Source of the DNA: Plasmodiophora brassicae | Lineage: Eukaryota | DNA length: 20,000 nucleotides | NCBI GenBank assembly: GCA_036867785.1 | Contig: CP145416.1 | Span: 1,351,254 to 1,371,253 of the forward strand | Direction: 5' to 3' | Part shown: in pieces, positions 1-20,000 of the stretch | Numbering within the stretch: position 1 is the stretch's first letter | How the letters are laid out: every line of letters begins with the position of its first letter | Made by a program: the position numbers and the translations under genes | The notes under the pieces: model-generated | What the model saw: the letters and a program-made list of their open reading frames with translations, nothing else | Told to the model about the DNA's origin: nothing | Databases searched by the model: none

Positions 1-1117
1 ACGACGATATCGAGACGGCAACGTACACGCGACGAATGGAGATGCAGAAGCTGATGTCATTGTCGGGCCAGGCCGACATTGTCCTGTCGCATGACTGGCC
101 GCGGGGCATCCTGCAGTACGGTGACGATGAGGTCCTGATCAACCATCGACCCCAGCTGGCGAAGCAGATTGCGGCGGACGCGTTTGGCAACCCGCACCTG
201 GACGACCTGATGACGCACCTGAGACCCGGTCACTGGTTCTCGGCCCGTTGGCAACTCAAGTGGAGCGCCGCATGGCGACACGCGAACGGCCAGCAGACCT
301 TGTTCTACTCGGCACCAAAGACCTGCCGCCGGAAGGACTTCCTGCAGTACTTTGACATACCGTCCAAGAACGATGACCGCGACATCCAGTTCGATCCGGA
401 ATGGCTGGCCATAACGCGACTCAGCTCGCCTTTGCTGTCGTGTGACCCTGCATCGCAGCCGATCGAATTGACATCGGAAGCCATCCAAGCCGTGCGTCTT
501 CGTGCAGCATGGCCTGTCGAATGTCGCCTCGTTGTGCTGACGTGGTGATGGATGGCAGGAAACCGACGTGGTGCGCGCCGAACTGAACGACCAACTCAAG
601 GTGCCGCTCGAGTTCGAACGTACCGTCAAACCGCACAAGTTCAACCACGCGCGTATGGTCTGCAAGCCGAAGCGACGCATGGATTACCTGGAACGTACCA
701 GTAAGCACCACGTTTCCCGCGTGCATCGTCTGTCGCGACGCCCGGTGGTCTGACACCTGTTTGGTCACAGCCCTACAGCTGAACCCGTACACGTCCCACT
801 TCATGGAGCGGATGCGAATCGCCGATCCGTTTGTTGACAAGCGCAATCGGACGGTAGAGCGGAAGGTGGAGCCGAAGAACCGCCTGTCAAAGGAGGAGAA
901 GATGGCAATGAAGATCGCGCCGTACGACGAACGGTTCTGTTTTGAGAACGGGAAAATGCCGTTCGAGAACGGCGACCTGCTGGGCTTGAATCCGACTTCG
1001 ACGCCTGCGTTCCGAATGCCGGCAGCAACGAGCCTGCGGCTCGACCGCTTCCGTCAATCGCGGGTGATGTCGACTCTGGCCACGTCAGCAATGAGCGTTG
1101 TACGACGTGTTCGCTAG
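1..1117 (+). CDS. Lariat debranching enzyme (Dbr1)-like protein, 5'-truncated by the window. Predicted exons <1-491, 559-700, 771-1117. Probably catalytically degenerate.
   Basis: Translation has Dbr1 hallmark segments: DIVLSHDWPRGI, GNP..L..LRP.HWFSA, DFLQ, FDPEWLAI and C-terminal LNPYTSHF. Two GT..AG introns (492-558, 67 nt; 701-770, 70 nt), each with a CTGAC branch point, join three ORF-track fragments in frame. The 3' end at 1117 is less certain. Confidence 0.85.
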
Positions 1118-1597: not shown

Positions 1598-2479
1598 ATG
1601 AAGCATTGCACGCTCCTGGCCATTCTACTGTCGGGCCTCTTGTCGGCCGCTGTCGAGACCGACTTTTCGTACGCCGACCAGGGCGCCTGGCAGACGCTGC
1701 CCAACTCGCAATGCGGTGGACGTCGCCAATCGCCAGTCGACCTGGACCTACGCAACGTGACCGTGGACAAGATCCTGGGTCAAGATCTGGCTTGCACCTG
1801 GCAGCAGAACAAGGCGGTCATAGAGGGCGACCTGGTTAACACCGGACGGACGATGGAGCTGGACGTTCGGTCGCCACACACGTGTCGTGGCGTCCCTGGG
1901 TCGCCCAGTGCCCACTTCCGCCTCGCCGCCGTCCACATCCACTATGGCAGCGCCTCCGACCAGGGCAGCGAACACACGATCAACGGGCGAACGTCGGCGC
2001 TGGAGGTTCACATGGTGCACTTTGACACAAGGTTCGCCAGCTTGGACAAGGCCCGCGAGCAGCCGGGCGGGATCATGGTCGCCGGCCTGCTATTCGACGA
2101 AGCTGACGAGGCGATCGCGAACCCGGAGCTGACGAAGATGGCGGTCATCAGCGGGACGGCGCTACGGTCCACAGGAGGCGTGCTCGCTAGCCGCCTGAAC
2201 GCGGCCCCGCTGATTGAAGGCACAGGACTGGATAAGGCTCGGGCGCGCTTCCTGACGTACGCGGGATCGCTGACGACGCCGACCTGTAACGAGGTCGTCA
2301 CCTGGATCGTCGCCGCGGAACCTGGTCTGGTGGGCCACCAGACCATGCACCTGCTACGTACCGTGACGGGCCTGGGCAACAAGACGATCACGCCCAATTT
2401 CCGACAGGTCCAGCCGCTGAACGGACGCACGATCACGAGCTCGTTCCAGCCGGCCTGTGGTCTACACGGCCGCTGTTAG
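1598..2479 (+). CDS. Secreted alpha-carbonic anhydrase, intronless, 293 aa
   Basis: N-terminal hydrophobic signal-like peptide (MKHCTLLAILLSGLLSAA). Alpha-CA motifs QSPVD, HIHYG (two Zn His), GSEHTING, EVHMVH (third Zn His), YAGSLTTPTCNEVVTW and NFRQVQPLNGR. Cys pair typical of extracellular alpha-CAs. Confidence 0.95.
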   Translation: MKHCTLLAILLSGLLSAAVETDFSYADQGAWQTLPNSQCGGRRQSPVDLDLRNVTVDKILGQDLACTWQQNKAVIEGDLVNTGRTMELDVRSPHTCRGVPGSPSAHFRLAAVHIHYGSASDQGSEHTINGRTSALEVHMVHFDTRFASLDKAREQPGGIMVAGLLFDEADEAIANPELTKMAVISGTALRSTGGVLASRLNAAPLIEGTGLDKARARFLTYAGSLTTPTCNEVVTWIVAAEPGLVGHQTMHLLRTVTGLGNKTITPNFRQVQPLNGRTITSSFQPACGLHGRC

Positions 2480-3449
2480 GCGATTAGCTCGACGTGTTGC
2501 GGTGCGAGCACCGAGCCGTACTTGTTGGCTGACCTCTAAAACGATGCTGGTGTTCTGATGAACTCGCTTGTATGATATTGTGGCCGTAACCGCCGCGTCC
2601 TCAGCCGTAATCATACAGATGGAGGGTGCTTGACGTCAGCTGACGTTCACGCGTGGCATCGTTGCCGACCGGCTAAAGTGCTGCACAGGGAAGGACCGTA
2701 CCGGCGACGACGACATCACCACGTTGTTGACAGGAACGTGTCGGCTGTAACATGCATTGATGCGCGCAATGCTTCTGGGGAGTCCCAATCGCCGGACCGT
2801 GTCTATGGTTGGCCACTGCTCTGCCGCGTCGTCTAGCTAGATGCCGGCAAGCGATGACGCATGTGACGTTTTCCGTCCCGCCATCCGCCGTGCACCCGGA
2901 CCAGCACACAAGCGAGGGCACGTTTGAAACCGACACCGCAAGGTTCCACGCTTTGTCCTGGTGTGATACGCAATGATGGCATGGTCCCGATGGCGGCCCA
3001 CTATTGCCGTCTTGTCCCGTGAAGCATACTGCTGAACTAGAGAACGTCAGCTCGGTCAGCAGCGACAATGGATTTCCGATGCGTCGTCCTGTCTATGGTT
3101 CCAACAATCACATCTCTGGGGTCAGGCTACACGTTCGACGTATCTGTCAAAGTGTGTCACGGCACTGATGTTGTTCGTATCCCAGGCGTTTCAGCACCTC
3201 TGTACGCAACCGTCGAATGAAGATGCATTCAGGGCAACGTAAAGGAGACACCGATCCCGCGGTGGGTGCTGTCGGCGCGACCGATGACCCGACGTCGCTG
3301 CCAGCCCCGAAGGCCGCCCTCTGCAACGCCCTGCATGGCCGCCCGACATGCCGTTGTTTCGGCATCACACAGCGCAGGTCGTCCCTGCCGTCGCGCCTGC
3401 CTGCACCCGGGTCGACGTCGCTGCCGACCAGTGACCTTCCCGCAACAGA

Positions 3450-3712
3450 CCTACTACGACCACAACGCGTCCTGCTGGACGTATGACGTCGCGCGCGTCC
3501 TGGAACTCATTACGACCGCAACACGTCCTGCTCGATGCGTGCCGTCGCGTCCAGCATGTCTGGGGGACGCCCTGCATCTCGAGGACAGGTACGAATCGTA
3601 GCCTCTGGCACAGACCCAGGCCGTCTAACTCTTGCTGGACAGGGCACGCCTGCCGTCGCCTGCCGTCTCCCGTCCAGCATGAGCACCTGCAGGGCAGCGG
3701 TCGTCCTGCCGG
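3450..3712 (+). repeat. Copy 1 of a dispersed intron-containing subtelomeric repeat (gene-family relic)
   Basis: CTACGACCACAAC..TCCTGCTGG ... CAG|GTACGA..CTAAC..ACAG|GGCACGCCTGCC..AGCATGAGCACCTGC is shared with the copies at ~14.65, 16.17 and 18.12 kb. Intron-like segment 3589-3642 (54 nt). Confidence 0.75.
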
Positions 3713-4006
3713 GGGGGGGCAGCGCCGCTCCGGTCTGATCCTCAGCTGAGGCGGCGTCCTGGCCGCCCGCCAGTCGTTACAATCGGTCTCGCGCGCCCCT
3801 GCCCTACATCATGCATCGATGGGTGGGCGGACCAACGAAGGGCGCCACTGAGGTCCCCGCCTGCCTGGCGAGCGTCGCTTGTTTGTCCTGCAGGTCGCCA
3901 AGCAGGGCAGCGGCGCCCAGCGCCAGTGGGCGCCGGTTGACATGCGAACGCGAGAGGCAACCGTTGCAGCCGCCTACGACGGGGCAGCATTCGCGTCGGA
4001 CGCCGG

Positions 4007-5753: not shown

Positions 5754-7263
5754 CCATGCTATTTTCTTTGCCATAAACTGCCCACCGTGATTGTCACGAC
5801 TATACAACGATGCGTTGACGACGCCTGACAATGATTGTTCGAGATCGATAGTGTGCTCAAGGCCTGATGAAGGCTCCTCGCTCGAACCGCAAGAGCGTGT
5901 CGAATGGTGGATCGACCACGCAGCTCAGCTTGGGATGCGTAGGCGGTAGCCAAGTTGGCACGCTTCTCTCTGAGCCAGTCAGGATGCTGAACTCGAAACC
6001 AGGGAACCTGAGCAACACGCGACGTGGCTGTATCACCTTCGTGCGTTCGCTGATGAGCTACGGCCAATTCATCGCCGCCCATAGGAGGACGTCGCTGAGA
6101 GAGATCGACGCCTGGATTGGTGCTGTTAACGAGTTCGAGGAAATTCTCTGTTTATTCGTGAGGGCGGCGCCCAACAACGTGAATGGGACGCCGGGTCGTC
6201 AGGCGATGGCCAATCGGCGATCGCTCGAGCAGGTGATGATACGCACTGCGCCGCTCAGCCGTTTATGGCGAGCGGCAGCAGTGCGGGCTCGGTTCGCGAT
6301 GCGGGCGGTATGCACCGCAGCGCTGGCCTAGGTGGGGTGTCGGTAGATGCCTTGCTGCATCGGGTCGGGGGCACCGTCACAGGGGGAGTGGGTGCCCGGC
6401 CGCGGCTCAGCACGGCATGGTCTTGGGGAGCGTGGGGGAAGGTGACCTTGAGCACGGCAGCGCGCGCTCAGTGGAGAGGCGCAGGCGGCGGGGCGACCAC
6501 GGCGGGAGCCAGCGCGGGCTGGCGCCCCCGGACGCCTGGTCTTATGCATCGTCGGCTGGCGCGTGCCTGTGACGGTGCGGCAGCAGGCGGGGCGGTTCGG
6601 CGACGTCGGGCGCCGGGTGCAGGACGGGATCGGCCGCGACCGACGAGATCAGCAGCAGTAGTAGCGCGGCCGGCACAAGCCTGATCTTGAGGTCGACACG
6701 GCGGTCCGGATCCTGCTGGACGACAACGGCCTCGGCGGCGGCGACGGCGACTGCAGCGGCCTGCAGGTTGTCCGGCTCGTCGTGTAGGTCCGGCTCGAGG
6801 AACGCGATGGCGGCTGGTCCGGCCATTGACGCCACGCACTGGGCCGAGATCGACAACGGCGCCCCGTGCAGGCACTCGACGACGGTCGCGGACGTTGCCG
6901 CGCACGATGCTGCGGTTCCCGAAGACCATGGCCACCGACGACTTCATCAACGAGTCCATGCCGGCGAGCAACGCTTTCGAATGATCCGAGAAGGCCAGGC
7001 CATACTCGGCGCGGGCGCGAACCCAGCAGAATATGAGCAATCGCTTGCGGGCTAGGGACAGGTGCGACCGGTCCTGAACAGCGCGTGCTGACTGATCCGT
7101 GCCGAAATGTTCCGTGATGAGGGCTGCGGGGATGTTGCGTGACGTGGACACGGGGAGGGGAGGGGGCTCTCGGGGATGCCGCCCGCACTCGCATACCGCC
7201 GCCGCCGCTCGCTCGCATCGCCGCCGCTCGCCGCCACCGCTCGCCCGCAGTACTCCGACCGAC

Positions 7264-9615
7264 ATGGACAGCAACCGACGCATCACCGACACGACGACAC
7301 CCCAGGAGGTCGCCGTCGTCGTACGCGACCTCAGTCAAGGGCGGGCTCGTCTCATTGGCAGCTTTGACGGCATTGTCCTCCGGGACGTGAGACGCTCATA
7401 CCTTCACCAATACTTCGTCTGGGATGACGAGGCGCCCAGCGAGGGCCGGACCGCGTTCATCGACAACTTCTATTCGTGCCTGCATCGGCCCGCACCGTTG
7501 CCTGCCGTCCCGTTCACGTGCGGCAGCATTGCCGTGGTCGCGACAGATGTGGCGTCGATGTATCTGGCAGCGAATCCTCGCCGTCGAGGCGCACCCTACA
7601 AGATCGTTTCGGTGGCCAGAGCGCACTCCTTAGCCGGGTACGGGGTCGTCCACATGGCGGCGTTTGCTCTCGCCGGCCTGTTCGATTCGCATAGGCGGTT
7701 CTCTCCGCTCCAACTACCAATGCCCGACGTCCTGCACGAGGCCGCCATGCCCGACCGTGATTTCTCATTCTCTGCCAGCCACATCCTGCGCCCGAGCCAC
7801 AACAGCAACCTGAGCGTCACGATCGCGTACCTGCTGGCCGCGCTGCCGCTCAGGACTTTCGTCCCGAGCCCGCTCTGCCGCCCCGAGCTCCAATTCCACG
7901 GCCGGGTGTGGGATCGCGTGCTGGACGCGGCGTTGCGCGTCCCCGAATCGCAATCGCCCAGCATCTTCTCGCATGTCGAGTTTGCGCTTGCCCAGGTGCT
8001 GGACGGGTTTCCTGACCAGTTCGTCGACTACGCGGTGACGCTGTCGGCGACGCCGGTGACCGGCAACGATGATCCGATGCGGCGCGCCCGTCGTCTCCCC
8101 ATATTGCTGGCCGAGATCGGCGCGCACGACGTGATGGAAGACTGCGACCACAAGGACTTCCGGAAGATGGCTGTCGACATGGCCGCCTCCCTCATCGCTC
8201 AGCTGGGCGTCCTGCGCGAAGCGCCTCGCGACGATCGCGCCCGGCTACGCGTCTTCGGTCTACTGTGTGGCGGTGGCCGAGCTCAGCCGTATGTTCTGGT
8301 CCCAGACCTCGCCGACGAGGGCGACCGTGACAAGTCGGACGAGACTGTGCGCGCCTCTCTCGTCCTGCACCCGTTGCCGTCGTTTGATCTGTTCGGCAAC
8401 GACGTGGAGCAGGATCCGGTTCCGCTGGTCGTCCCGCCCGGTGATCTGTGCAATCCGGACGACGTCGACCAGCTCGACCGGAACGACCGCGCCCGCTACG
8501 ACGGCCGTTCGGTCCGAGGGCCCAGTGCTCGCGTCTTTGCCGAAGACGGCACCGTCAAGCTGGAGTACCTGCGCCCACTGTTCACTTTTGCCGACGCCGT
8601 CCGTCAGTACGCTGCCGAGTACGACCGCCTGCTCGACGGCCACAAGGCCGACCTGTCGCCGCCGTTCCCCTATCCGGACGAGTTCGGGTCGCCTCCGCGC
8701 TCGAGGTCCAGTCACGCGCTGCGCTCATCGGCGCGATCCTCGCAGCGTTCCTCGGGGACGTCGTCACAGCGTCCGCCGAAGCGCCCTCGCACCCGGGACG
8801 TCGTCGAGGCCGAATTCGACTCGTCGTCGGGCGTGTCGGTGTGCCTTCTGCGGCGGCCGGACGGGTCCCGTGTCGCCGTCAAAAGAAAGCCGAAGAGCAG
8901 GCAGCTCGAGATCGACCTGCTGCGAGCGGCACAGGGCCCGGGCGTCGTCCGCCTTGTCGAGGACCGGGGCGACGCCGGCATCGTGCTCGTTGAGCAACGC
9001 CTGGATCGTATCGATCTGGCCGACCTGTCGCTGGCGGGCATGGCCGCCGTCCTGATTCGCTTGTTCGTCGACGGTCTGGACGCGTTGCAGACGATGGAAC
9101 GCGCCGGCATCGTGCACCGGGACATCTCCGTCAACAACCTCATGTACTCGATGGAGGATCGTCGGTGGCGCCTCACCGATTTTGACGCCGCCTGTCGCGC
9201 GACCGACCTGGTGGACGGGGGCGACGGCGTCCTGTATGGCACCGACGGGTTCATCGCCCCGGAGGCACTGGCGCCCGAGCGCCGGTACACGTTCGCGTCG
9301 GACCGTTGGAGCCTGGGCGCGTGCGCTCTGTACTGGATCAACGCCGCCGAGGACGAGTACGGGCGCCGTCGCGACGTTGGACACCTGTTCGGCGCCCTGC
9401 TCGGCCAGTTGCTGGTGTTCGCGTACCATCTGCAAGTCGGCGATCGTCGCTTGCACGACGACGAGGTGCAGGTGCTGACGGAGTGGAAGATCGAGAGGCA
9501 CCTGCCCGGGTGGCCCCGGAACGGAGAGGGCACCGAACGGCCATCGGGAAGCGTGCCAGTCTCGTCCAGGACGCGCGACAAGGAGTCCCACCTGGACGGG
9601 TCGCCCGTGCGGTAA
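7264..9615 (+). CDS. Putative restriction-endonuclease-fold + protein kinase fusion (Crinkler/CR-effector-like architecture)
   Basis: Intronless open frame (ORF track 7099-9615; first in-frame ATG after the GC-rich leader is 7264). C-terminal kinase motifs: VAVK, EIDLL, HRDISVNN, DFD, GTDGFIAPE, SDRWSLG. The central FVDYAV...ILLAEIG...HKDFRKM...RVFGLL segment resembles a PD-(D/E)xK-like REase core (recognised by eye). Confidence 0.8.
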   Translation: MDSNRRITDTTTPQEVAVVVRDLSQGRARLIGSFDGIVLRDVRRSYLHQYFVWDDEAPSEGRTAFIDNFYSCLHRPAPLPAVPFTCGSIAVVATDVASMYLAANPRRRGAPYKIVSVARAHSLAGYGVVHMAAFALAGLFDSHRRFSPLQLPMPDVLHEAAMPDRDFSFSASHILRPSHNSNLSVTIAYLLAALPLRTFVPSPLCRPELQFHGRVWDRVLDAALRVPESQSPSIFSHVEFALAQVLDGFPDQFVDYAVTLSATPVTGNDDPMRRARRLPILLAEIGAHDVMEDCDHKDFRKMAVDMAASLIAQLGVLREAPRDDRARLRVFGLLCGGGRAQPYVLVPDLADEGDRDKSDETVRASLVLHPLPSFDLFGNDVEQDPVPLVVPPGDLCNPDDVDQLDRNDRARYDGRSVRGPSARVFAEDGTVKLEYLRPLFTFADAVRQYAAEYDRLLDGHKADLSPPFPYPDEFGSPPRSRSSHALRSSARSSQRSSGTSSQRPPKRPRTRDVVEAEFDSSSGVSVCLLRRPDGSRVAVKRKPKSRQLEIDLLRAAQGPGVVRLVEDRGDAGIVLVEQRLDRIDLADLSLAGMAAVLIRLFVDGLDALQTMERAGIVHRDISVNNLMYSMEDRRWRLTDFDAACRATDLVDGGDGVLYGTDGFIAPEALAPERRYTFASDRWSLGACALYWINAAEDEYGRRRDVGHLFGALLGQLLVFAYHLQVGDRRLHDDEVQVLTEWKIERHLPGWPRNGEGTERPSGSVPVSSRTRDKESHLDGSPVR

Positions 9616-9972
9616 CGCGTTCGACCGGTCAAGACGTGCGCCCAGACGTCGACCTGAATATTGGAAATGTGTTCGTTCAGAGGCCGGTCCTGTCCTGCTC
9701 GTGGGATGATGGCAGGGCGCACGACAGCAATAATAACGGTCTGCCTATCGTCCTGGATTCCATCGACCACCTTGGTGTCCACCTGAGCGCTGAGCAAGCA
9801 GCTCGTTGCCATCTTGGAGAGTGTGAACGTTCGCTGACGGTCGCCTCGTCGAGTCGATCCTGTGGGGCATTCGTAACCGTTTACTGTACGACGTGTTCGA
9901 CGAGCTTGCGCCCGACATCGTTGTGTGAATCGTCGAGAGCTTCCACATCCTGCACTCGGAGTTGAGGACGTA

Positions 9973-10000
9973 CTACTCCGTTTCATCTGAAGAGTCCGAT
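9973..10000 (+). repeat. Left terminal inverted repeat of the mariner element
   Basis: 28 bp, preceded by TA. A partial internal second copy, GAAGAGTCCGATTCGTGCA, lies at ~10025-10043. Confidence 0.9.
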
Positions 10001-10055
10001 CCCACGGCGTTTTTCGTTCCAACAGAAGAGTCCGATTCGTGCATTCATGCCGACA

Positions 10056-11444
10056 CTAACAGTTCTGGCGCTCGAACGACGTCACTTTGGCAGCTAGAGC
10101 CTTCCATGCATTCCCATGAGAGATAGGGTCATCCCTCACGGCCTTGCTTATCTTGCGTTTGGCATTGCGGAGCGCAGATGAGTCGCAGTGGATAGCAATC
10201 GGAAGCATATTGTGGCGTCGCAGGTGCGCCTTGCGCATGTGAGGAGGTTTGAACCCGTTCCCGCCCCCATGCGTCATACATGCTTCCATTGTCTTCTGTA
10301 GAGACAGGAATAAGTCATCGATTGTTTGCCACTCAATGTCGTTGAACGCTTCTTCGATATTCGCGACCATGTCATCAATTGATTTGGCCGGCTTCCGAAG
10401 CTGGCGCGCCTGAATAGCCGAAAACAACCCAAGATCAAGAATGTTCAGGTCGGGGGAATGAGGTGGTTGAGGTGATATCGATATGTTCCAGCCGTCCGAA
10501 GATGCCGCTCGCAGAATCGCTTCATCTCGATCGACACGTGAATGCGGAGGAGCATTATCATGTTGAACTCGGATGGGCATGGATTTGGAACTCTGCGGCC
10601 ACTTCACCTTGATCGCAGGGATGACCTTCTCCACCATTGTCCTGATGTACTCGCCCCTGTTGATGGACTCCAGGGCCTTCATGACCAGCGTTCCCTTGGG
10701 TCGGTTGCGAGAGGATCATTTGGCTGGTTCGCTAACGGTAAAGGGGAAGCAGCCTATTTTACCGTCAAATATAACCCCCGTCTCGACGACGAACCGCGGT
10801 CTCGCCACAGCAACGAGAACCATGACCTTCTTGATAAAGCGCCGATTTTGAACATGCCGCGCGGGTGTCGCCTCGCCCCGAACGATGTAATAACCTTGCT
10901 TGGCTTTGCAGATGTAGAAGTACTTCTCGTCTACATGTACGTAGTCAAGCATCGGCTGGAAACACGTCAGATCGTCGGTCAGCATCTGGATGCAGTGAAC
11001 AAGACGCGTGATCGCATTTTGAAAAGTCAGCGTTGGTGCCACCGTGCTGGATACGTGCTGGATCAGTCCCTCTTCCTTCATGCGAAACGTGGTTGACAGC
11101 GAGACGTTCAGCGACGACGCCATTGTCCGAAGGCTGACGCAGTTATACTCTGGCAAGTTCTTCGCACGCTCGAGGATTGGCCCCCTGTCTATCAGTTTTC
11201 TGCCCGGACCGTGCTTCCTTGAAGCAACATCCGCCACCACAGCGCCGCTCGCGTAGCATTCCTTGGCACGATGCCAGATTCTCGAAATGGTCTTAGTGCA
11301 CACCTCGAAGTGGTTTGCTGCTGCTGATATCGTTCCCGCCGCAAGCTTCCCGTTGTGAGATTTGATCAGGAGATATTGTAGGACTCCTTGGCGTTGCTCG
11401 TTTGTCAGGTTGGGGCGCTTCTTGCTTAACTTGCCGGCGACCAT
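10056..11444 (-). pseudogene. Mariner-like DDD transposase (DD39D plant/oomycete-type lineage) with one in-frame stop
   Basis: ORFs 10716-11444 and 10056-10682 are in the same frame, separated by a TGA at 10716-10718 (EPAK*SSRNRPKG). Catalytic motifs HVDEKYFY, QHDNAPPH and SPDLNILDLGLF, plus an N-terminal HTH-like region. 462 aa if read through. Confidence 0.93.
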
Positions 11445-11669
11445 GTTGTCAGATGGCGCGCAGATCGATTTCAGCCAGTCGTCTCCAGGGGTGGGCTATT
11501 TTTGGATATCTAGGCGTCAACCGGCAAAAGGTATAGGTTGGAAGATAATCCATATCATGAGACATATGTCGCCGGAATGATACCTCTCTGACCTAGTGAT
11601 AGACAGAGTTCAATAAAGGTACGCCCTGTATTTATAACTATATACTACCTCAAAATACGCCGTGTATCG

Positions 11670-11731
11670 TCCCTACCAACGGTCCTACCAGGGTCCTACC
11701 ACGGATCCTACCGCACCCACGGATCCTACCA
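11670..11731 (+). repeat. Array of five CCTACC-core direct repeats upstream of the recombinase gene
   Basis: CCTACC at 11672, 11684, 11695, 11707 and 11725. Further same-orientation copies lie downstream of the gene at 14019, 14129 and 14137. Confidence 0.8.
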
Positions 11732-11820
11732 GACGGCGCCGCCACCCCCTCCCGGTACAACCAAGCGCACCGCCGCACGCATCCCCACGCAGGTTTCCAC
11801 ACCGCATTGTCGACGACGTC

Positions 11821-13998
11821 ATGGGTCGATCACGATCGTCTGGAGGGCAACGAACGCGCACAGCGGCCCAGTTCCGTGTCAGCAACCGGGCCAAGTACCA
11901 TGTCCCCGCCGAGTTATGGGCGGACGCCGTTGTCGGTTTGGGCCTGGTTCGTCGCCGCCTTCGCGTGTCGGAAGGAGCGAGCCGCCCTGTCACCGGGAGC
12001 AAGCCCCTGGCCAAGAACTCGGTGCATGCCTACGGCAAGCACATACGTGGACTAAGGTACTACTGTTGCCTGGTCGGTGACTACGACAGCCTGCTTGTCC
12101 TGCAGGACGATGCGCCATCTGACCACTGCCCGTCAATGAGTGCGAAGACCTTATCGAACTTTGTTCGGTTCAAGAGGGGCGTCCAGGGGACGCCGCTTGT
12201 CGATGCCTCGGGCGTGCCCGTCCTGGATCGGCGTGGGCAGCCTGTCGTCTGCCAAGGCGGGTGGAATGGCCCTGGCAACGTGGAGCAGTTCGAGTCGGCC
12301 GTTACGGCGGTGCATGCGGCGCGCGATCAACGTGGCAACTTTGAAGACGCGTGCAACGCCTGCTGGGACGCGTTCCAGGCGGCGCGTCAAGCGAGTGCCT
12401 GCGGCCGGCATGTTGGACAGCATGATGATTCTTGCGACACATGCTGGGCGACGTTCTCGAGATCGAATCAGTCTTTCGGCTGCTTTCATCACGTCGGACA
12501 GCCACGTCTGTGGCGGCGCGGCAATCCTGTGCTGAGTCAAGTTGCGGTCGACACCAAGCAATGGGTGAAACGCGAGACGCAGGGGTACAAGGCAGAGGGT
12601 AACTTCGCTCTGCTGCCTGACCAGGTGCTGGAGATCAGGCGGCAGCTCGTTGCGACTGGCTCCCTCCGAGACTATTCCACCTGGGTGTCGATCCTGCTGG
12701 GCGTCCACCTGTTCCTGCGGGCCGACGAGATCGTCGACATCGCGCTTGAAGATTTCTTGCTCGAGATGACGGCCAAGGACGACCTGGACCGCGTCGATCA
12801 GCTCGTCGTGCAGGTCTGCGGCAAGTCGGAGAGGGCCAAGGCCGAGGGTCCCGTCAATCTGGTCTTGTACCGGCTTGATTCGCACCCGAAGCTATGCCCC
12901 ATCCGGGCGTTGTTCACGCTGGTGTCTCGGACACGCATCAAGTCCGGGTTGGTCTTCGGCACGAAGCAACACCTTGACGCGATCGACCGAGGCGCCGCTT
13001 CGTTCGAATCGTTCCCGGATGGATTGTCCTACGACGAGTTCAACGCCGAGTTCGTTCGTGTTTGCAGGCCTGTCGTCGGCGACGACACGATGCACCGGTA
13101 CGGCCCGCACTCGATCCGCAAGACGGCGTACCTGTTCGCCATCTGGGGTGGTGGCGACCTCGATCACATCAGGCAAGCGGCGCGCCACAAGACGCTCAAG
13201 AACGCGGAATTGTATTACCGCGATTCGAAAGCTCTGCTGGCCCGGGCGCGCAGGACGAACAGCCACGTACTGGCGTTGACGCCCAAGTGGGAGCCGATCT
13301 TCCTGGAGAACCTGCGCAACGCTCGGCGGATCGCTCTCGATAGCAGGTGCCCGCCGCAGTCGAGCTCGATACCCGGGTTGGCATCGACGTACGTCGCGAC
13401 ACAGCTCCGGGTCGATCCGGCGTCCGTGTCCCTGATGCAGCTCATCTCTCTGGCAGAGCGCGATATCCCTGAGACGCCGGCGTTTCAACAATTGGAACAA
13501 CTGCTTCAAACGCATGTGCCCCAGCTGGCACAGACGATGATGTCGCTGGTTAACCAGGTCGTTCTCCAACGACTCAACAATTCGGAATCTCAGCCAGCCA
13601 TCCAGCAGCCACCGGCCCCGCCCCCAGTCCAACCGCCGATGGCGTCGTCATTGTCACCTCCGCCGCCGCTGCCGCAACCTGATCCGAACGATGACAACCG
13701 GGGGCGCGCGAGGCGAGGCGGTAATGTCGATCTTCCTGGGCGTTCACAGCTGGCCAAGCTTTCGACTTCGTCGGAGAAGATTGTGCTGCTTCTATCCATC
13801 GAGGCGTCGCTGCCGGCCAGCAAGAAAGACCTGACCGAGCGTGCCCGCACGTTCGTCAATCAGGTCGTGACGCCAGTGCTGCGGTGCTACCGCGAACATT
13901 GCGCCTCGTCGTTGCCCGAATTCGTCGACAAGTGGGGGGCCAACTTCTCACACTCCCGGTTTTCGAAGGGGTGCGGTTGTGTGGAGCCGGCCCAATAA
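11821..13998 (+). CDS. Tyrosine recombinase, Crypton-like, intact (~725 aa from ATG 11821)
   Basis: Full catalytic set in order: FLRADE (R), GKSE (K), HSIRK (HxxR), ARHK (H), ELYY (Y), plus the LCPIRAL motif common in eukaryotic YRs. No reverse transcriptase nearby, so not DIRS. Pro-rich linker and a small Cys/His-containing C-terminal domain. Confidence 0.9.
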   Translation: MGRSRSSGGQRTRTAAQFRVSNRAKYHVPAELWADAVVGLGLVRRRLRVSEGASRPVTGSKPLAKNSVHAYGKHIRGLRYYCCLVGDYDSLLVLQDDAPSDHCPSMSAKTLSNFVRFKRGVQGTPLVDASGVPVLDRRGQPVVCQGGWNGPGNVEQFESAVTAVHAARDQRGNFEDACNACWDAFQAARQASACGRHVGQHDDSCDTCWATFSRSNQSFGCFHHVGQPRLWRRGNPVLSQVAVDTKQWVKRETQGYKAEGNFALLPDQVLEIRRQLVATGSLRDYSTWVSILLGVHLFLRADEIVDIALEDFLLEMTAKDDLDRVDQLVVQVCGKSERAKAEGPVNLVLYRLDSHPKLCPIRALFTLVSRTRIKSGLVFGTKQHLDAIDRGAASFESFPDGLSYDEFNAEFVRVCRPVVGDDTMHRYGPHSIRKTAYLFAIWGGGDLDHIRQAARHKTLKNAELYYRDSKALLARARRTNSHVLALTPKWEPIFLENLRNARRIALDSRCPPQSSSIPGLASTYVATQLRVDPASVSLMQLISLAERDIPETPAFQQLEQLLQTHVPQLAQTMMSLVNQVVLQRLNNSESQPAIQQPPAPPPVQPPMASSLSPPPPLPQPDPNDDNRGRARRGGNVDLPGRSQLAKLSTSSEKIVLLLSIEASLPASKKDLTERARTFVNQVVTPVLRCYREHCASSLPEFVDKWGANFSHSRFSKGCGCVEPAQ

Positions 13999-14088
13999 AT
14001 TGGATGATTCGTTCCGGGCCTACCTGCGTTCCCAGCTGGCAATGCGTCGGTTTGCTTGCACCGCCCGGCTAAGTACATAGGCCTTAGC

Positions 14089-14126
14089 GGTCACAAAAGT
14101 GCGCAGTGCGCGCATTTTTTGTGACC
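14089..14126. other. Short inverted repeat/hairpin downstream of the recombinase
   Basis: GGTCACAAAAGTGCGC-AGTGC-GCGCATTTTTTGTGACC: 16/17-bp near-perfect arms around a 5-nt spacer. Confidence 0.75.
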
Positions 14127-14190
14127 CTCCTACCATCCTACCACGACAGTAATGAAACTTTATGACGTTAATCCTGGGGTACAGTGCACG

Positions 14191-14218
14191 ATCGGACTCT
14201 TCAGATGAAACGGAGTGG
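14191..14218 (-). repeat. Right terminal inverted repeat of the mariner element
   Basis: ATCGGACTCTTCAGATGAAACGGAGTGG followed by TA; 27/28 match to the left TIR. Confidence 0.9.
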
Positions 14219-14240
14219 TATTTGGTAGGGAAGATCCGAT

Positions 14241-14288
14241 CGACGTCGACCAGCTCGACCGGAACGACAGCGCCCGCTACGACGGCCG
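14241..14288 (+). repeat. 48-bp copy of an internal piece of the REase-kinase gene
   Basis: 47/48 identical to 8460-8507 (encodes DVDQLDRND.ARYDGR). Confidence 0.85.
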
Positions 14289-14651
14289 GGTTGGGGAGCC
14301 CGGGTACCGGTTGCAGATCCACGAGAGGACGGCGTATGCGTCATCGCCAGCACAACACGCCTCGGGATGCGGCTGGTTGAACGGCTGGACATGCAGCGCC
14401 TGGAGCTATATTCGTCCTGTCTGCGGAGGCTGGCGGCGGACTGCCGTGAATGCGACCGTGCCGAGCAGGTGCCCACTCCGAGGTGGGCGTCGTCAGCGCC
14501 GCAGAAACGACGCTGCCGCCAACGGCGACAACGTACACTGCCGCCCCGTCGGCACCGTTCGGCACAATTAGTCGTCCTGGCCCAGATGCGCCTGCCTGCC
14601 CTGTACGTTCGCGACGACGTCGCCGCCAAACAGAGGCACGGGTCAATGCGA

Positions 14652-15000
14652 CCACTACGACCTCAATACGGTCTGCTGGACGCCAGGCGACGTTTCCGCC
14701 AGGTCTGCGAGATCGTACTGCACCTTGACGATAGGTACAAGTCATCGCCTGCTGCACAGTCATCCAGGCGTCCTCTGACGCGCTGGACGTCACTGGTCTG
14801 CCGTCTCCTGCCGTCGAAGCGGGACGTGTACAACGTGGCGCAGGCCAGGTGACGCACTCGTCGTCCGACGTTTGCTACGATTTGGCATGACGCGCTACAG
14901 CCCTGCACCATGCGACGATGGCTGGCTGACCAGCCAAGGTTGTCGCCGACCTCCCTGTCTGCGCGTCGAGCACGCGGTGCCTGCCTGCCTGCCTGCGTTG
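14652..15000 (+). repeat. Copy 2 (more degraded) of the intron-containing subtelomeric repeat
   Basis: CCACTACGACCTCAATACGGTCTGCTGG ... GATAG|GTACAA..CTGAC; the acceptor appears mutated. Right boundary approximate. Confidence 0.6.
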
Positions 15001-16085: not shown

Positions 16086-16164
16086 GCGGCCTGCTTCGAT
16101 AGCTGCCGGTACGATTTGGACAGGTGAATCGTGTCGTCGAAGCAGGGCGCCTGCCAACGGACCC

Positions 16165-16745
16165 AGAACGACCACAACATGTCGTGCTGCACGCCTGCCG
16201 CCGTCCCGACGGGTTTGGACGAACGTCAAGCACCTTCGGGACAGGTATGATCAGTCGTGGCCTGGTGCACAGTTCCCCAGGCCCTCTAACATGTTGGGCA
16301 GGACACGCCTGCCGTTGTCTGTCCACCGGGATCCGCCTGCATCAGCAGTCGTCCTGTTCATGCTGGTCGTGCCACCGTCATGCCGACCTGCTCCTCGGCA
16401 GAGGCAGCGCGCCCTGTCCGCCCACCGATCAGTGCAAGCGGTTGCGCGCGCTCCGGGCCTGCCCTGCACCATGCGTCGACAACGGGACAACCGAGCAAGG
16501 GCGTTGCCGAGTTCCGCATCTGCCTGGTTAGCCGCGCTTGACTGCCCTGCAGGTCGTCCATAAGGGCAGTGGCGTTTAGTAGGCGTCGTCGCCGGTCGAC
16601 ATGGGAATGCTTATTAGCTGCCATCGACGACCCGCCGGCCGCCGCCATCCCTGCCGGCATGTCGGCACAACCAGAACCGTTCAATACAAGCAGGTGAGGC
16701 CGATACGCGCGAGCAACGACCCTGCATGTCGTCCTGGTGTTAACC
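16165..16745 (+). repeat. Copy 3 of the intron-containing subtelomeric repeat
   Basis: ACGACCACAACATGTCGTGCTG ... ACAG|GTATGA..CTAAC..GCAG (intron-like 16245-16301, 57 nt) ... GTTCAATACAAGC. Collinear with the copy at 18.1-18.8 kb but frameshifted. Confidence 0.7.
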
Positions 16746-18041: not shown

Positions 18042-18839
18042 ATGTCGTTCCTGACACGTCTGGTGGCCCTGCGTGCTCGGGCGCTGACGTCGCCGCCGTC
18101 CAGCGGCGCTGATACCCGGAGCCACTACGACCACAACACGTCCTGCTGGGCGGCTGCCAACAAGCCGCATACGTCCGGGCTCCATAACAGGTACGATTCT
18201 TCCTCTAACGCACATAGCCAGGCCGTCTAATACGTGCTTGGCAGGGCGCGCCTGCCGTTCAGCATGAGCACCTGCAAGACAGCAGTCGTCCCGCGTAGGC
18301 GAGGCGGGGACCTCGTCGTGCCGACCTGCTCCTCAGCTATGGCGGCGCGCCGATCATTGCAATCGATCGCTCGCGCTCCTGCCCTGCACCGTTTGTCGAT
18401 AGCGGGACGATCAAGACAGGGCGTCGCCGAGGACCCCGTCCGTTTGGCAATCGGCGCCTGCCTGCCCTGCATGTCGTCCAGCTGGGCGTCGGAACTCAGC
18501 GCCCGTTGCCGCCGATCGACTTGCGAATGCCTGCCTGGCGTCGACGACCCGACCGCCGTTAGCCCTGCCGGGCATACCGCCACGACCAGACGAGTTCAAT
18601 ACAAGCCGATGATGTCGTCACGCGCGTACTACAAACACTGCCGATTGTGCTGGCGTCAGACGACACGACCCGTCGTCAGCTCTGCCGAGCATACCGGTGC
18701 AACCAGATCCGTTCAATACAAGCAGACCATGTCATCACGCGCGTACGACGTCAGTACTCAAGGTCGGCCTGGTGTCAGGTGGCACAGAACGGCAGCGTTC
18801 CCTGCAATTGGTGAAGTGGGGGCGCCGGTCCACGATTGA
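18042..18839 (+). CDS. Copy 4 of the repeat family: hypothetical two-exon ORF (18042-18190, 18245-18839; 247 aa)
   Basis: Removing a 54-nt GTACGA..CTAAT..GCAG intron (18191-18244) joins ORFs 18042-18230 and 18234-18839 in frame. Contains an internal duplication (T.TR.VQYK..MSSRAY twice). No recognisable domain. Confidence 0.35.
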
Positions 18840-19645: not shown

Positions 19646-20000
19646 TTAGGGTTTTAGGGTTTTAGGGTTTTAGGGGCTTAGGGTTTTAGGGTTTTAGGGT
19701 TTAGGGTTTTAGGGTTTTTTAGGGGGTTTTTTAGGGTTTAGGGTTTTAGGGTTTTAGGGTTTTAGGGTTTTAGGGTTTTAGGGTTTTAGGGTTTTAGGGT
19801 TTTAGGGTTTTAGGGTTTTAGGGTTTTAGGGTTTTAGGGTTTTAGGGTTTTAGGGTTTTAGGGTTTTAGGGTTTTAGGGTTTTAGGGTTTTAGGGTTTTA
19901 GGGTTTTAGGGTTTTAGGGTTTTAGGGTTTTAGGGTTTTAGGGTTTTAGGGTTTTAGGGTTTTTAGGGTTAGGGTTTTAGGGTTTTAGGGCTTTAGGGTT
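19646..20000 (+). repeat. Telomeric array (TTTTAGGG)n
   Basis: Tandem TTTTAGGG to the end of the window with the G-rich strand running 5'->3' outward. Variant units (T2-T6, G3-G5, CTTAGGG) occur at the proximal and distal edges. Confidence 0.98.

What the first reader, a model, noticed from the sequence alone, without database searches (positions are those of the whole stretch)
9971..14220. Mariner TIRs enclose both a DDD transposase and a divergent intact tyrosine recombinase: Tec-like composite transposon or nested Crypton
Seen: one TA-flanked TIR pair (27/28) brackets a minus-strand transposase and a plus-strand tyrosine recombinase arranged head-to-head, with ~375 bp between start codons. 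Known: DDE transposase + tyrosine recombinase pairings occur in ciliate Tec elements and bacterial Tn4430-type transposons; plant-type DD39D mariners normally encode only a transposase. Inference: this is either a new two-enzyme eukaryotic element, with the YR acting as resolvase/excisase or a hitchhiker, or a Crypton-like element inserted into the mariner 5' region. The visibly lower GC of the transposase half, and a dead transposase next to an intact YR, lean toward a later nested insertion.
Basis: partly seen in the sequence, partly recalled or inferred. Interest (0 to 1): 0.85.

Follow-up and report, generated by a model that had tools for sequence, protein, structure and literature searches.

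The report
Crypton-like element nested inside a mariner
A small jumping gene that uses a tyrosine recombinase has landed inside another jumping gene of the mariner type near a chromosome end, so this looks like two ordinary transposons, one nested in the other, and not a new two-enzyme element.

Summary
A TA-flanked inverted-repeat pair (9971-10001 / 14190-14220, 30 of 31 nt) encloses a minus-strand mariner-type transposase and a plus-strand 725-aa tyrosine recombinase (YR), head to head. The transposase has a single in-frame TGA.

The YR has no Pfam hit, but its model (pLDDT 88.9) matches Cre recombinase at Z 17.9 and the R-K-H-R-H-Y residues are conserved. Contigs of public runs laid on the region show:
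- a form that lacks the whole 4.25-kb unit, fitting a TA duplication;
- mariner derivatives that lack exactly 11626-14157, the YR segment;
- YR contigs at 4-8.6 times the depth of transposase contigs in 3 of 4 runs;
- a YR copy that runs into unrelated DNA at the same right boundary.

GC also differs: 52.6% in the mariner part, 61.4% in the insert. The best reading is a 2.53-kb Crypton-like element nested in the 5' region of a 1.71-kb mariner.

True mariner-Crypton composites are already described (MarCry-1_FO, Fusarium oxysporum). A 99.7% identical protein is annotated in Plasmodiophora brassicae as "Tyr recombinase domain-containing protein". Interest is modest. What is new is an apparently active Crypton-like family in a rhizarian, belonging to a large family that Pfam does not name.

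The parts
9971..9972 (.). left copy of the TA target-site duplication of the mariner
   Evidence: Sequence. The joint 9969->14218 skips 4248 nt with 3 ambiguous letters.
9973..10001 (+). left terminal inverted repeat of the mariner
   Evidence: 31-nt arms including the TA, 97% complementary, 0 expected by chance.
10015..10036 (+). subterminal partial copy of the TIR, present at the left end only; possibly a second transposase binding site (inferred)
   Evidence: pair I3, 22 nt, 86%; the 12-mer GAAGAGTCCGAT has 3 matches in the window against 0.10 expected.
10056..11444 (-). mariner-type transposase gene, 462 codons, with one in-frame TGA at 10716-10718; DUF7769 HTH at the N-terminus; D172, D296, D332 and D337 conserved
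   Evidence: The stop lies in a column where 10 of 10 aligned relatives have arginine.
11445..11625 (-). mariner 5' untranslated region, proximal part, up to the insertion point
   Evidence: in YR-less derivatives 11625 is joined to 14158.
11626..14157 (+). nested Crypton-like element, 2532 bp, boundaries good to about 2 nt
   Evidence: the joint 11625->14158 appears in 3 of 4 runs. A high-depth contig starts at 11625 (X2 record 18). X7 record 27 diverges after 14159. GC is 61.4% against 52.6% for the mariner part.
11672..11731 (+). cluster of five direct (T)CCTACC(A) motifs about 50-100 nt inside the left end of the nested element; candidate recombinase-binding or promoter repeats (inferred)
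   Evidence: TCCTACCA has 5 matches in the window against 0.26 expected, all on the + strand and all in this cluster or the one at 14128-14143.
11821..13998 (+). tyrosine recombinase gene, 725 aa, intact; R300, K335, H430, R433, H456 and Y465 conserved
   Evidence: Model pLDDT 88.9. Cre is the top hit: Foldseek E 5e-6, VIA Z 17.9. 723 of 725 residues identical to a named P. brassicae protein.
12342..12456 (+). internal 81-nt tandem duplication of the Cys-rich CxxC...C motif in the recombinase, absent from the 3 closest relatives outside this species
   Evidence: insertion relative to P0001-P0003. (family D4, 34 nt, 71%, spacing 81).
14089..14126 (+). hairpin-forming inverted repeat downstream of the recombinase stop codon
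   Evidence: -15.2 kcal/mol, z -3.9, 0 of 200 shuffles fold as well.
14128..14143 (+). two further direct TCCTACCA motifs, 15-30 nt inside the right end of the nested element
14158..14189 (-). distal part of the mariner 5' region, cut off from the rest by the nested element
   Evidence: joint 11625->14158.
14190..14218 (-). right terminal inverted repeat of the mariner
14219..14220 (.). right copy of the TA target-site duplication

Best explanation
Two separate transposons, one inside the other. (1) A 1.71-kb Tc1/mariner-superfamily element (9973-11625 plus 14158-14218) of the plant/oomycete DUF7769 clade inserted by cut-and-paste at a TA in a multi-copy subtelomeric sequence. Its transposase now carries one premature TGA. 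(2) A 2.53-kb Crypton-like element (about 11626-14157) later inserted into the mariner's 5' untranslated region, 181 nt upstream of the transposase ATG and in the opposite orientation. It has one gene for a 725-aa tyrosine recombinase, no terminal inverted repeats, and arrays of direct TCCTACC(A) motifs near both ends. The Crypton-like element is presumed to move on its own, by recombinase-mediated excision to a circle and reintegration. It does not serve the mariner. Shown here: the anatomy, the recombinase fold and catalytic residues, YR-less mariner derivatives, and a YR copy in another context. Inferred: the order of the two insertions, the circular intermediate, and any role of the TCCTACC(A) motifs.
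For: All joints, depths and contigs below come (runs X1, X2, X7, X11; Logan contigs; likeness 85 or more). (a) A joint 11625->14158 skips 2532 nt with one T between. It is seen in 3 of 4 runs (X1, X2, X11). The mariner backbone therefore exists without the YR segment. (b) Contigs that match the YR part exactly have depth 379-407 in X1, 1960-2309 in X2 and 129-143 in X7. Exact transposase contigs have depth 63.6, 269-324 and 31.5. The ratios are 4 to 8.6. (c) X2 record 18, a high-depth contig, begins exactly at 11625. (d) X7 record 27 (2387 nt) matches 12151-14159 with 4 other letters and then runs on for 388 nt of unlike sequence. This is a YR copy outside this mariner with the same right boundary. 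(e) Other degenerate YR copies exist: the joint 12202->13773, and a 4497-nt contig about 10% diverged over 11820-12236. GC is 52.6% in the mariner part, 61.4% in the insert and 62-66% in the flanks; GC3 is 0.63, 0.75 and 0.81. No inverted repeat of 7 nt or more links the two insert ends, while 7 direct CCTACC cores do. Recombinase fold: Cre at Z 17.9, rmsd 3.5, 306 residues aligned, model range 43-481. R300, K335, H430, R433, H456 and Y465 are invariant or at least 90% conserved in 70-87 relatives. Among those relatives, 10 of 70 hit Pfam NDC10_II (best E 1.4e-6) and 3 of 70 hit Phage_integrase. Of the 10 relatives looked up, 7 lie on contigs of 2.3-3.2 kb, too short for a second transposase gene. 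None of 6 metagenome loci with a YR relative holds a match to the transposase. The 7 best transposase relatives with a contig on record lie on contigs of 1.5-1.7 kb, apart from P0006 (6.1 kb) and P0008 (a chromosome). That matches the 1.71-kb backbone.
Against: The tool states that contig depth is not a copy number. In 1 of 4 runs (X11, guessed to be RNA) the ratio is reversed: the YR contig has depth 40.8 and 15 differences, while transposase contigs have depth 152-165. The YR-less mariner copies seen are themselves internally deleted (10222->11413 or 10270->11413) and 7-11% diverged, so no intact YR-free 1.7-kb copy was seen. Only one contig, from a run guessed to be RNA, shows the YR copy in another context among the rows printed; 133 loose ends and 484 pieces were not shown. 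The expected 4-6-bp terminal direct repeats of Cryptons are not evident; at most a 2-nt CT is shared at the two junctions. The empty-site form does not tell whether the mariner arrived empty or already loaded. No whole genome was held for this window, so copies could not be tabulated.
Confidence: 0.8

Rival explanations
1. MarCry-like composite: after the Crypton-like element entered a mariner, the whole 4.25-kb TIR-bounded unit was moved here by mariner transposase as one piece, and may still be movable in trans.
For: The TIRs are nearly perfect (30 of 31 including the TA) and the TA duplication is intact. A form lacking exactly the whole unit is seen in 3 of 4 runs. Cut-and-paste movement leaves no second copy. 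There is a precedent, MarCry-1_FO (PMC3212892).
Against: Transposase contigs sit at the lowest recurring depth in X1 and X2, so there is no sign of several composite copies. The transposase has a stop codon. No closer relative than 48% identity of 254 aa or more was found among 79 hits. The YR part is identical to the high-depth copies (0 differences over contigs of 906, 559, 451 and 408 nt), which fits a very recent arrival of the YR.
Confidence: 0.12
2. Tec-like two-enzyme element: the recombinase is an integral partner of the mariner, for example resolving or excising transposition intermediates.
For: Both genes lie inside one TIR pair, head to head. Tec1 and Tec2 pair a DDE transposase with a YR (PMC3212892, passage).
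Against: YR-less derivatives of the same mariner exist. The YR segment has its own boundaries and its own depth, and a different base composition. Relatives of either gene lie on contigs too short to hold both. None of 6 loci with a YR relative holds a transposase match.
Confidence: 0.03
3. Passive capture: the mariner picked up a host recombinase gene, by transduplication or a composite of two mariner ends, without any activity of the recombinase itself.
For: The GC and GC3 of the YR gene are closer to host genes than to the transposase.
Against: No further TIR copy lies inside the unit: 2 matches only, at up to 3 mismatches. The same 2.53-kb segment recurs with the same boundaries at higher depth and in another context. 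The protein family is found in distant eukaryotes on element-sized contigs.
Confidence: 0.03

Closest known systems
MarCry-1_FO of Fusarium oxysporum (Kojima and Jurka 2011, PMC3212892; passages read)
   Same: A Crypton recombinase gene and a mariner-type DDE transposase gene sit inside one pair of TIRs with a TA target duplication.
   Different: MarCry-1_FO has four copies more than 97% alike, which shows that the composite moves as a unit. Its Crypton is of the CryptonF group with a GCR1_C domain, and its TIRs are 16 bp. Here the composite shows no sign of more than one copy. YR-less mariner derivatives and free YR copies exist. No GCR1_C match was found. The TIRs are 29 bp.
Crypton DNA transposons, above all CryptonS of oomycetes and diatoms (PMC3212892; passages read)
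   Same: A single recombinase gene and no TIRs or LTRs. There is a conserved C-terminal region without GCR1_C, a low copy number, and relatives in an oomycete (Aphanomyces stellatus). A diatom-rich Atlas cluster is among the nearest neighbours.
   Different: CryptonS elements are reported with 5-6-bp terminal direct repeats, mostly TATGG. No TATGG and no clear repeat longer than 2 nt is seen at these junctions. The host is a rhizarian, a group not listed for Cryptons in that paper's passages.
Plant and oomycete mariner-like elements with a DUF7769 N-terminus (the names 'DD39D' and Stowaway-type TIR are recalled, not tested)
   Same: TA duplication; TIRs beginning C(T/C)ACTCCG; DUF7769 plus a Tc1-like DDE domain. 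It is 35-48% identical to relatives from Phytophthora, Aphanomyces and plants. The backbone is about 1.7 kb.
   Different: There is one extra residue between the second and third catalytic Asp relative to the plant relatives in A3. There is one premature stop. It carries a nested element.
Tec1 and Tec2 of Euplotes crassus
   Same: A DDE transposase and a tyrosine recombinase lie in one TIR-bounded element (PMC3212892, passage).
   Different: In Tec the pairing is a constant feature of a high-copy family. Here the pairing looks accidental, and each part is found without the other.
Cre recombinase of phage P1 (structural neighbour)
   Same: Two-domain tyrosine recombinase fold: Z 17.9, 306 of 327 residues aligned.
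   Different: Sequence identity is 14%. The protein here has a Cys/His-rich insert (C178, C181, C221, H224 conserved) and an extra conserved region of about 240 residues at the C-terminus, with no fold match examined.

Membership tests
Tc1/mariner superfamily | TA target-site duplication | tested here: met
   TA lies at 9971-9972 and 14219-14220. The empty form skips element plus one TA, 4248 nt.
Tc1/mariner superfamily | terminal inverted repeats | tested here: met
   28 of 29 nt plus the TA; 0 expected by chance.
Tc1/mariner superfamily | DDE/D catalytic triad in a transposase with an N-terminal HTH | tested here: met
   D172, D296, D332 (and D337) are invariant in 11 aligned sequences. DUF7769 scores E 1e-16. 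DDE_3 is only weak, at E 0.03-0.07 and below Pfam's cut-off.
Tc1/mariner superfamily | uninterrupted transposase reading frame (autonomous copy) | tested here: not met
   There is one in-frame TGA at 10716-10718.
Tyrosine recombinase superfamily | two-domain Cre/integrase fold | tested here: met
   Model pLDDT 88.9. Foldseek finds 36 PDB matches at E of 0.001 or less, and the first 27 rows printed are Cre or Cre-derived variants (Tre). VIA gives Z 17.9, and 103 of 335 chains reach Z 8 or more.
Tyrosine recombinase superfamily | catalytic R-K-H-R-H/W-Y residues | tested here: met
   R300, K335, R455 and H456 are invariant, and H430, R433 and Y465 are at least 90% conserved, in 70 relatives (likewise in 87). 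Assigning these residues to catalytic roles rests on motif order (LFLRxDE, GKxD, HxxR, RH, Y), not on a residue-by-residue superposition.
Crypton | one recombinase gene, no reverse transcriptase, no TIRs or LTRs | tested here: met
   11626-14157 holds a single long ORF. No inverted repeat of 7 nt or more links the ends.
Crypton | short (4-6 bp) direct repeats at both termini | tested here: inconclusive
   Only CT is shared at both junctions. The YR-less reference copies are 7-11% diverged, so the junction cannot be placed to the base.
Crypton | several copies with the same ends at different sites | tested here: inconclusive
   Depth is 4-8.6 times higher in 3 of 4 runs. One contig shows another right flank, and one high-depth contig starts at 11625. 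No genome was available to count copies.
Crypton | recombinase sequence related to known Crypton recombinases | tested here: inconclusive
   The window's protein has no Pfam hit. Among relatives, 10 of 70 hit NDC10_II, a domain that the 2011 paper derives from CryptonF. The nearest Atlas neighbours carry NDC10_II, GCR1_C or DUF3504. No Repbase Crypton sequence could be compared.
Crypton | excision as a circle and reintegration | not testable with these tools
   This needs junction PCR or long reads.
MarCry / Tec-type composite (DDE transposase plus YR moving as one unit) | several copies of the whole composite with TIRs and TSDs at independent sites | tested here: inconclusive
   No sign of more than one composite was found. 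Exact transposase contigs have the lowest recurring depth, and each part is also seen without the other. Copies could not be counted in a genome.

The most novel reading that the evidence does not exclude
The 2.53-kb insert belongs to a widespread group of Crypton-like transposons that has not yet been described. The group has 1187 representative proteins at E of 0.001 or less and no Pfam family. Its proteins carry a conserved CxxC...CxxH insert and their own C-terminal domain. It is currently active in a rhizarian crop parasite. By landing inside a mariner with intact ends, it has recreated, independently of Fusarium, a MarCry-like vehicle that a mariner transposase could move.
Probability: 0.2. 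Interest if true: 0.5.

Novelty: new member of a known kind. Interest (0 to 1): 0.3.

Why it matters
The finding removes a tempting claim, that this is a new two-enzyme eukaryotic transposon, and replaces it with an ordinary nested insertion. Two smaller points remain. First, the recombinase belongs to a large eukaryotic family that Pfam does not recognise, although it is clearly a Cre-like tyrosine recombinase. A profile for it would improve transposon annotation in protists, chytrids and oomycetes. Second, near-identical copies at raised depth suggest that a Crypton-like element is or recently was moving in what appears to be the clubroot parasite. Published repeat surveys of that organism, in the passages I read, name only broad classes. 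The case also shows the first step by which a MarCry-type composite could arise.

Tried and rejected
- First structure model from 4 sequences: unusable, pLDDT 36.9. It was replaced by the 87-sequence model.
- Sequence searches of the recombinase against PDB, alone and as a profile: nothing meaningful, best E 0.099-0.22 to unrelated proteins.
- Pfam on longer relatives (894-1284 aa) to look for fused domains: 0 families in 8 proteins.
- Pfam on neighbouring ORFs in L001 and L003: 0 families in 4.
- Shared 8-mers in the flanks of relatives' ORFs (L001, L002, L005): none comparable to the TCCTACCA arrays.
- Earlier findings of this scan: nothing by place, sequence or words.
- RNA: no RNA holder is listed on record. 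X7 and X11 are only guessed to be RNA, so nothing is claimed about expression.
- Exact look-up of the window's three proteins: not in the collection.
- Literature: 'Crypton' with 'Plasmodiophora' gave 2 papers, neither on this subject by title. 'Crypton' with 'Rhizaria' gave 10 papers, seen as a listing only. I therefore found no report of Cryptons in plasmodiophorids in the held library. Supplementary files, such as Additional file 1 of PMC3212892 or the repeat tables of the genome papers, are closed and could hold one.
- Misassembly of the window: considered, not tested. No printed contig bridges 11625 in the window's arrangement, and 484 pieces were not shown.

Full report
**1. The observation**

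The inverted repeat is real. The arms are 9971-10001 and 14190-14220, 31 nt, with one mismatch. Its 26-nt core occurs exactly twice in the window, against none expected in 200 shuffles. Each arm starts with TA.

Inside the repeat lie two reading frames.
- On the minus strand, one frame runs from 11444 to 10056 and is broken by a single TGA at 10716-10718.
- On the plus strand, an intact ORF runs from 11662 to 13998. Its first ATG is at 11821, giving 725 aa.
- The two start codons are 376 nt apart.

A partial third copy of the TIR lies at 10015-10036, at the left end only.

**2. The transposase**

It has a DUF7769 domain (E 1e-16) and a weak DDE_3 match. A word-indexed search gave 79 homologs. 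The best are 46-48% identical, and the named ones come from Phytophthora, Aphanomyces and flowering plants.

In an alignment with 10 of these homologs, D172, D296, D332 and D337 are invariant. The stop codon falls in a column where all 10 relatives have arginine. The gene is therefore a mariner-like transposase of the plant/oomycete type, inactivated by one nonsense codon. The spacing after the second Asp is one residue longer than in the plant relatives.

Most of the best hits sit on contigs of 1.5-1.7 kb.

**3. The recombinase**

Sequence methods say little.
- Pfam gives nothing for the window's protein.
- PDB sequence searches give nothing, either with the single protein or with a profile.
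- The word-indexed search found only 3 relatives.
- The exhaustive HMMER search found 1187 representatives at E of 0.001 or less and 175 at 1e-30 or less. Many of the 150 listed are 600-800 aa long.

An 87-sequence alignment shows a tyrosine-recombinase pattern: R300 (in LFLRxDE), K335 (in GKxD), H430-x-x-R433, R455-H456 and Y465. It also shows conserved C178, C181, C221 and H224.

The structure is clearer.
- AlphaFold2 on that alignment gave pLDDT 88.9. A first model from 4 sequences had failed.
- Foldseek puts Cre and Cre-derived recombinases first (E 5e-6). XerH, XerA, integron integrase and, far down the list, yeast Ndc10 follow.
- VIA-align gives Z 17.9, rmsd 3.5 Å and 306 aligned residues over model residues 43-481.

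Several weaker results link the family to Crypton-type recombinases.
- Of 70 relatives scanned one by one, 10 match Pfam NDC10_II (best E 1.4e-6) and 3 match Phage_integrase.
- The Atlas neighbours carry NDC10_II, GCR1_C, DUF3504 or Phage_integrase.
- According to Kojima and Jurka, NDC10 and GCR1 derive from CryptonF and DUF3504 from Crypton recombinases (PMC3212892, passages).

The protein is thus a Cre-like tyrosine recombinase of the Crypton kind. It has an extra Cys/His insert, partly duplicated in this species, and a conserved C-terminal region of unknown fold.

**4. Where the window comes from**

- A protein 723/725 identical is named [quoted passage not shown]. Fragments of the same 90% cluster lie on other contigs of that species.
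- The window ends in 44 copies of an 8-nt TTTTAGGG unit. This is the telomere repeat reported for P. brassicae (passages).
- The runs that hold the stretch are labelled plant metagenome and two coded organisms.

The locus is therefore about 5.4 kb from a telomere, most likely in P. brassicae. Family members also occur in Spongospora subterranea, the chytrid Zopfochytrium polystomum and the oomycete Aphanomyces stellatus.

**5. One element or two**

No whole genome was held. Instead I laid the Logan contigs of four runs on 9300-14900 at 85% likeness.

- **Empty form.** A form joins 9969 to 14218, skipping 4248 nt with 3 ambiguous letters. It occurs in X1, X2 and X7. It is the site without the whole unit and fits a TA duplication. 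Its depth in X1 and X2 is 2.5-3.4 times that of the exact transposase contigs. The flank is therefore probably a multi-copy subtelomeric sequence, and most copies lack the insertion.
- **Mariner without the recombinase segment.** A joint 11625->14158 skips 2532 nt with a single T between. It occurs in X1, X2 and X11. The contigs that carry it are also internally deleted (10222->11413 or 10270->11413) and 7-11% diverged. They are old, MITE-like derivatives.
- **Depth.** Contigs identical to the recombinase part have 4 to 8.6 times the depth of contigs identical to the transposase part in X1, X2 and X7. One high-depth contig (X2 record 18) starts exactly at 11625.
- **The recombinase segment in another context.** A 2387-nt contig in X7 follows the recombinase gene to 14159 and then continues for 388 nt that match nothing here.
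- **Degenerate recombinase copies.** A deleted copy (joint 12202->13773) and a copy about 10% diverged are also present.

Three results count against this reading.
- In X11, which is guessed to be RNA, the depth ratio is reversed.
- The tool warns that contig depth is not a copy number.
- Many rows were not printed.

**6. Features of the insert**

- The 2532-bp segment holds one gene.
- No inverted repeat of 7 nt or more links its ends.
- TCCTACCA occurs 5 times in the window against 0.26 expected. All 5 are on the plus strand: 3 lie 57-105 nt inside the left boundary and 2 lie 14-29 nt inside the right boundary. Two near-copies sit on the left as well.
- A hairpin lies at 14089-14126 (z -3.9).
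- Base composition sets the insert apart. It is 61.4% GC with GC3 0.75. The mariner part is 52.6% GC with GC3 0.63. The neighbouring kinase gene has GC3 0.81.

Removing the insert leaves a 1714-bp mariner. This matches the contig sizes of the transposase's relatives.

**7. Relatives elsewhere**

- Seven of the 10 recombinase relatives looked up lie on contigs of 2.3-3.2 kb.
- Six metagenome loci with a relative hold no match to the transposase (0 of 6).
- Nothing links the two gene families outside this locus.

**8. Comparison with known elements**

A real mariner-Crypton composite is already in print. MarCry-1_FO of Fusarium oxysporum has four copies more than 97% alike, 16-bp TIRs and TA duplications (PMC3212892). 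Tec1 and Tec2 also pair a DDE transposase with a recombinase (same paper).

The present case has the same look but fails the feature that defines a composite, which is repeated insertion of the whole unit. It fits instead a Crypton-like element nested in a mariner. Cryptons are described as lacking TIRs and having 4-6-bp terminal direct repeats, with TATGG typical of CryptonS. I see at most a shared CT, so the termini remain unsettled. Membership in a named Crypton group could not be tested without Repbase sequences or the paper's supplements.

**9. Verdict**

A MarCry-like unit that moved here as one piece cannot be excluded (0.12). A Tec-like partnership and passive capture are both unlikely.

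Novelty is limited to a new member of known kinds. The useful side result is that a large eukaryotic recombinase family unnamed by Pfam is Cre-like and probably mobile.

Noticed in passing
window 19646-20000: The window ends in about 44 copies of the 8-nt telomere unit TTTTAGGG, so the whole locus is subtelomeric. The same repeat is reported for Plasmodiophora brassicae and Chlamydomonas.
   Followed up: partly
window 7099-9615 (+), 8453-8507 and 14234-14288: An 838-aa ORF with a C-terminal protein kinase domain (Pkinase E 1.5e-14, Pkinase_fungal E 1e-8) lies just left of the mariner. A 55-nt piece from its middle recurs at 95% identity 14 nt right of the mariner. Contigs of public runs show several diverged paralogues, so this looks like a multi-copy subtelomeric kinase gene family with fragments.
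   Followed up: partly
window 3443-3951, 14644-14810, 16155-16717, 18114-18749: Several families of 60-85% similar direct repeats recur with a spacing of about 1.5-1.9 kb between the mariner and the telomere, and once at about 3.5 kb. This is probably a degenerate subtelomeric repeat unit. ORFs in it have no Pfam match.
   Followed up: no
window 12342-12456: The recombinase of this species carries an 81-nt tandem duplication of its CxxC...C(H) motif. The three closest relatives outside the species lack it. The model is of low confidence there (pLDDT 55-67).
   Followed up: no
window 9971-10222, 11413-11625 and 14158-14220 (as joined in run contigs): Public runs hold short deletion derivatives of the mariner, of about 0.2-0.6 kb, for example the joints 10121->14196 and 10222->11413 plus 11625->14158. 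They are 7-11% diverged. This is a small MITE-like family derived from the same mariner.
   Followed up: partly
window 1598-2479 (+) and 36-548 (+): Ordinary host genes lie further in: a eukaryotic-type carbonic anhydrase (E 2e-53) and the C-terminal part of a lariat debranching enzyme (E 5e-10).
   Followed up: no
recombinase residues about 500-725 (window 13320-13995): This is a conserved C-terminal region (LTxxARxF ... C ... H ... CxG..C; pLDDT above 95 for residues 640-710) found across about 70 relatives. It has no Pfam match, and no fold comparison was made for this part. It is possibly a DNA-binding or zinc-binding module.
   Followed up: no
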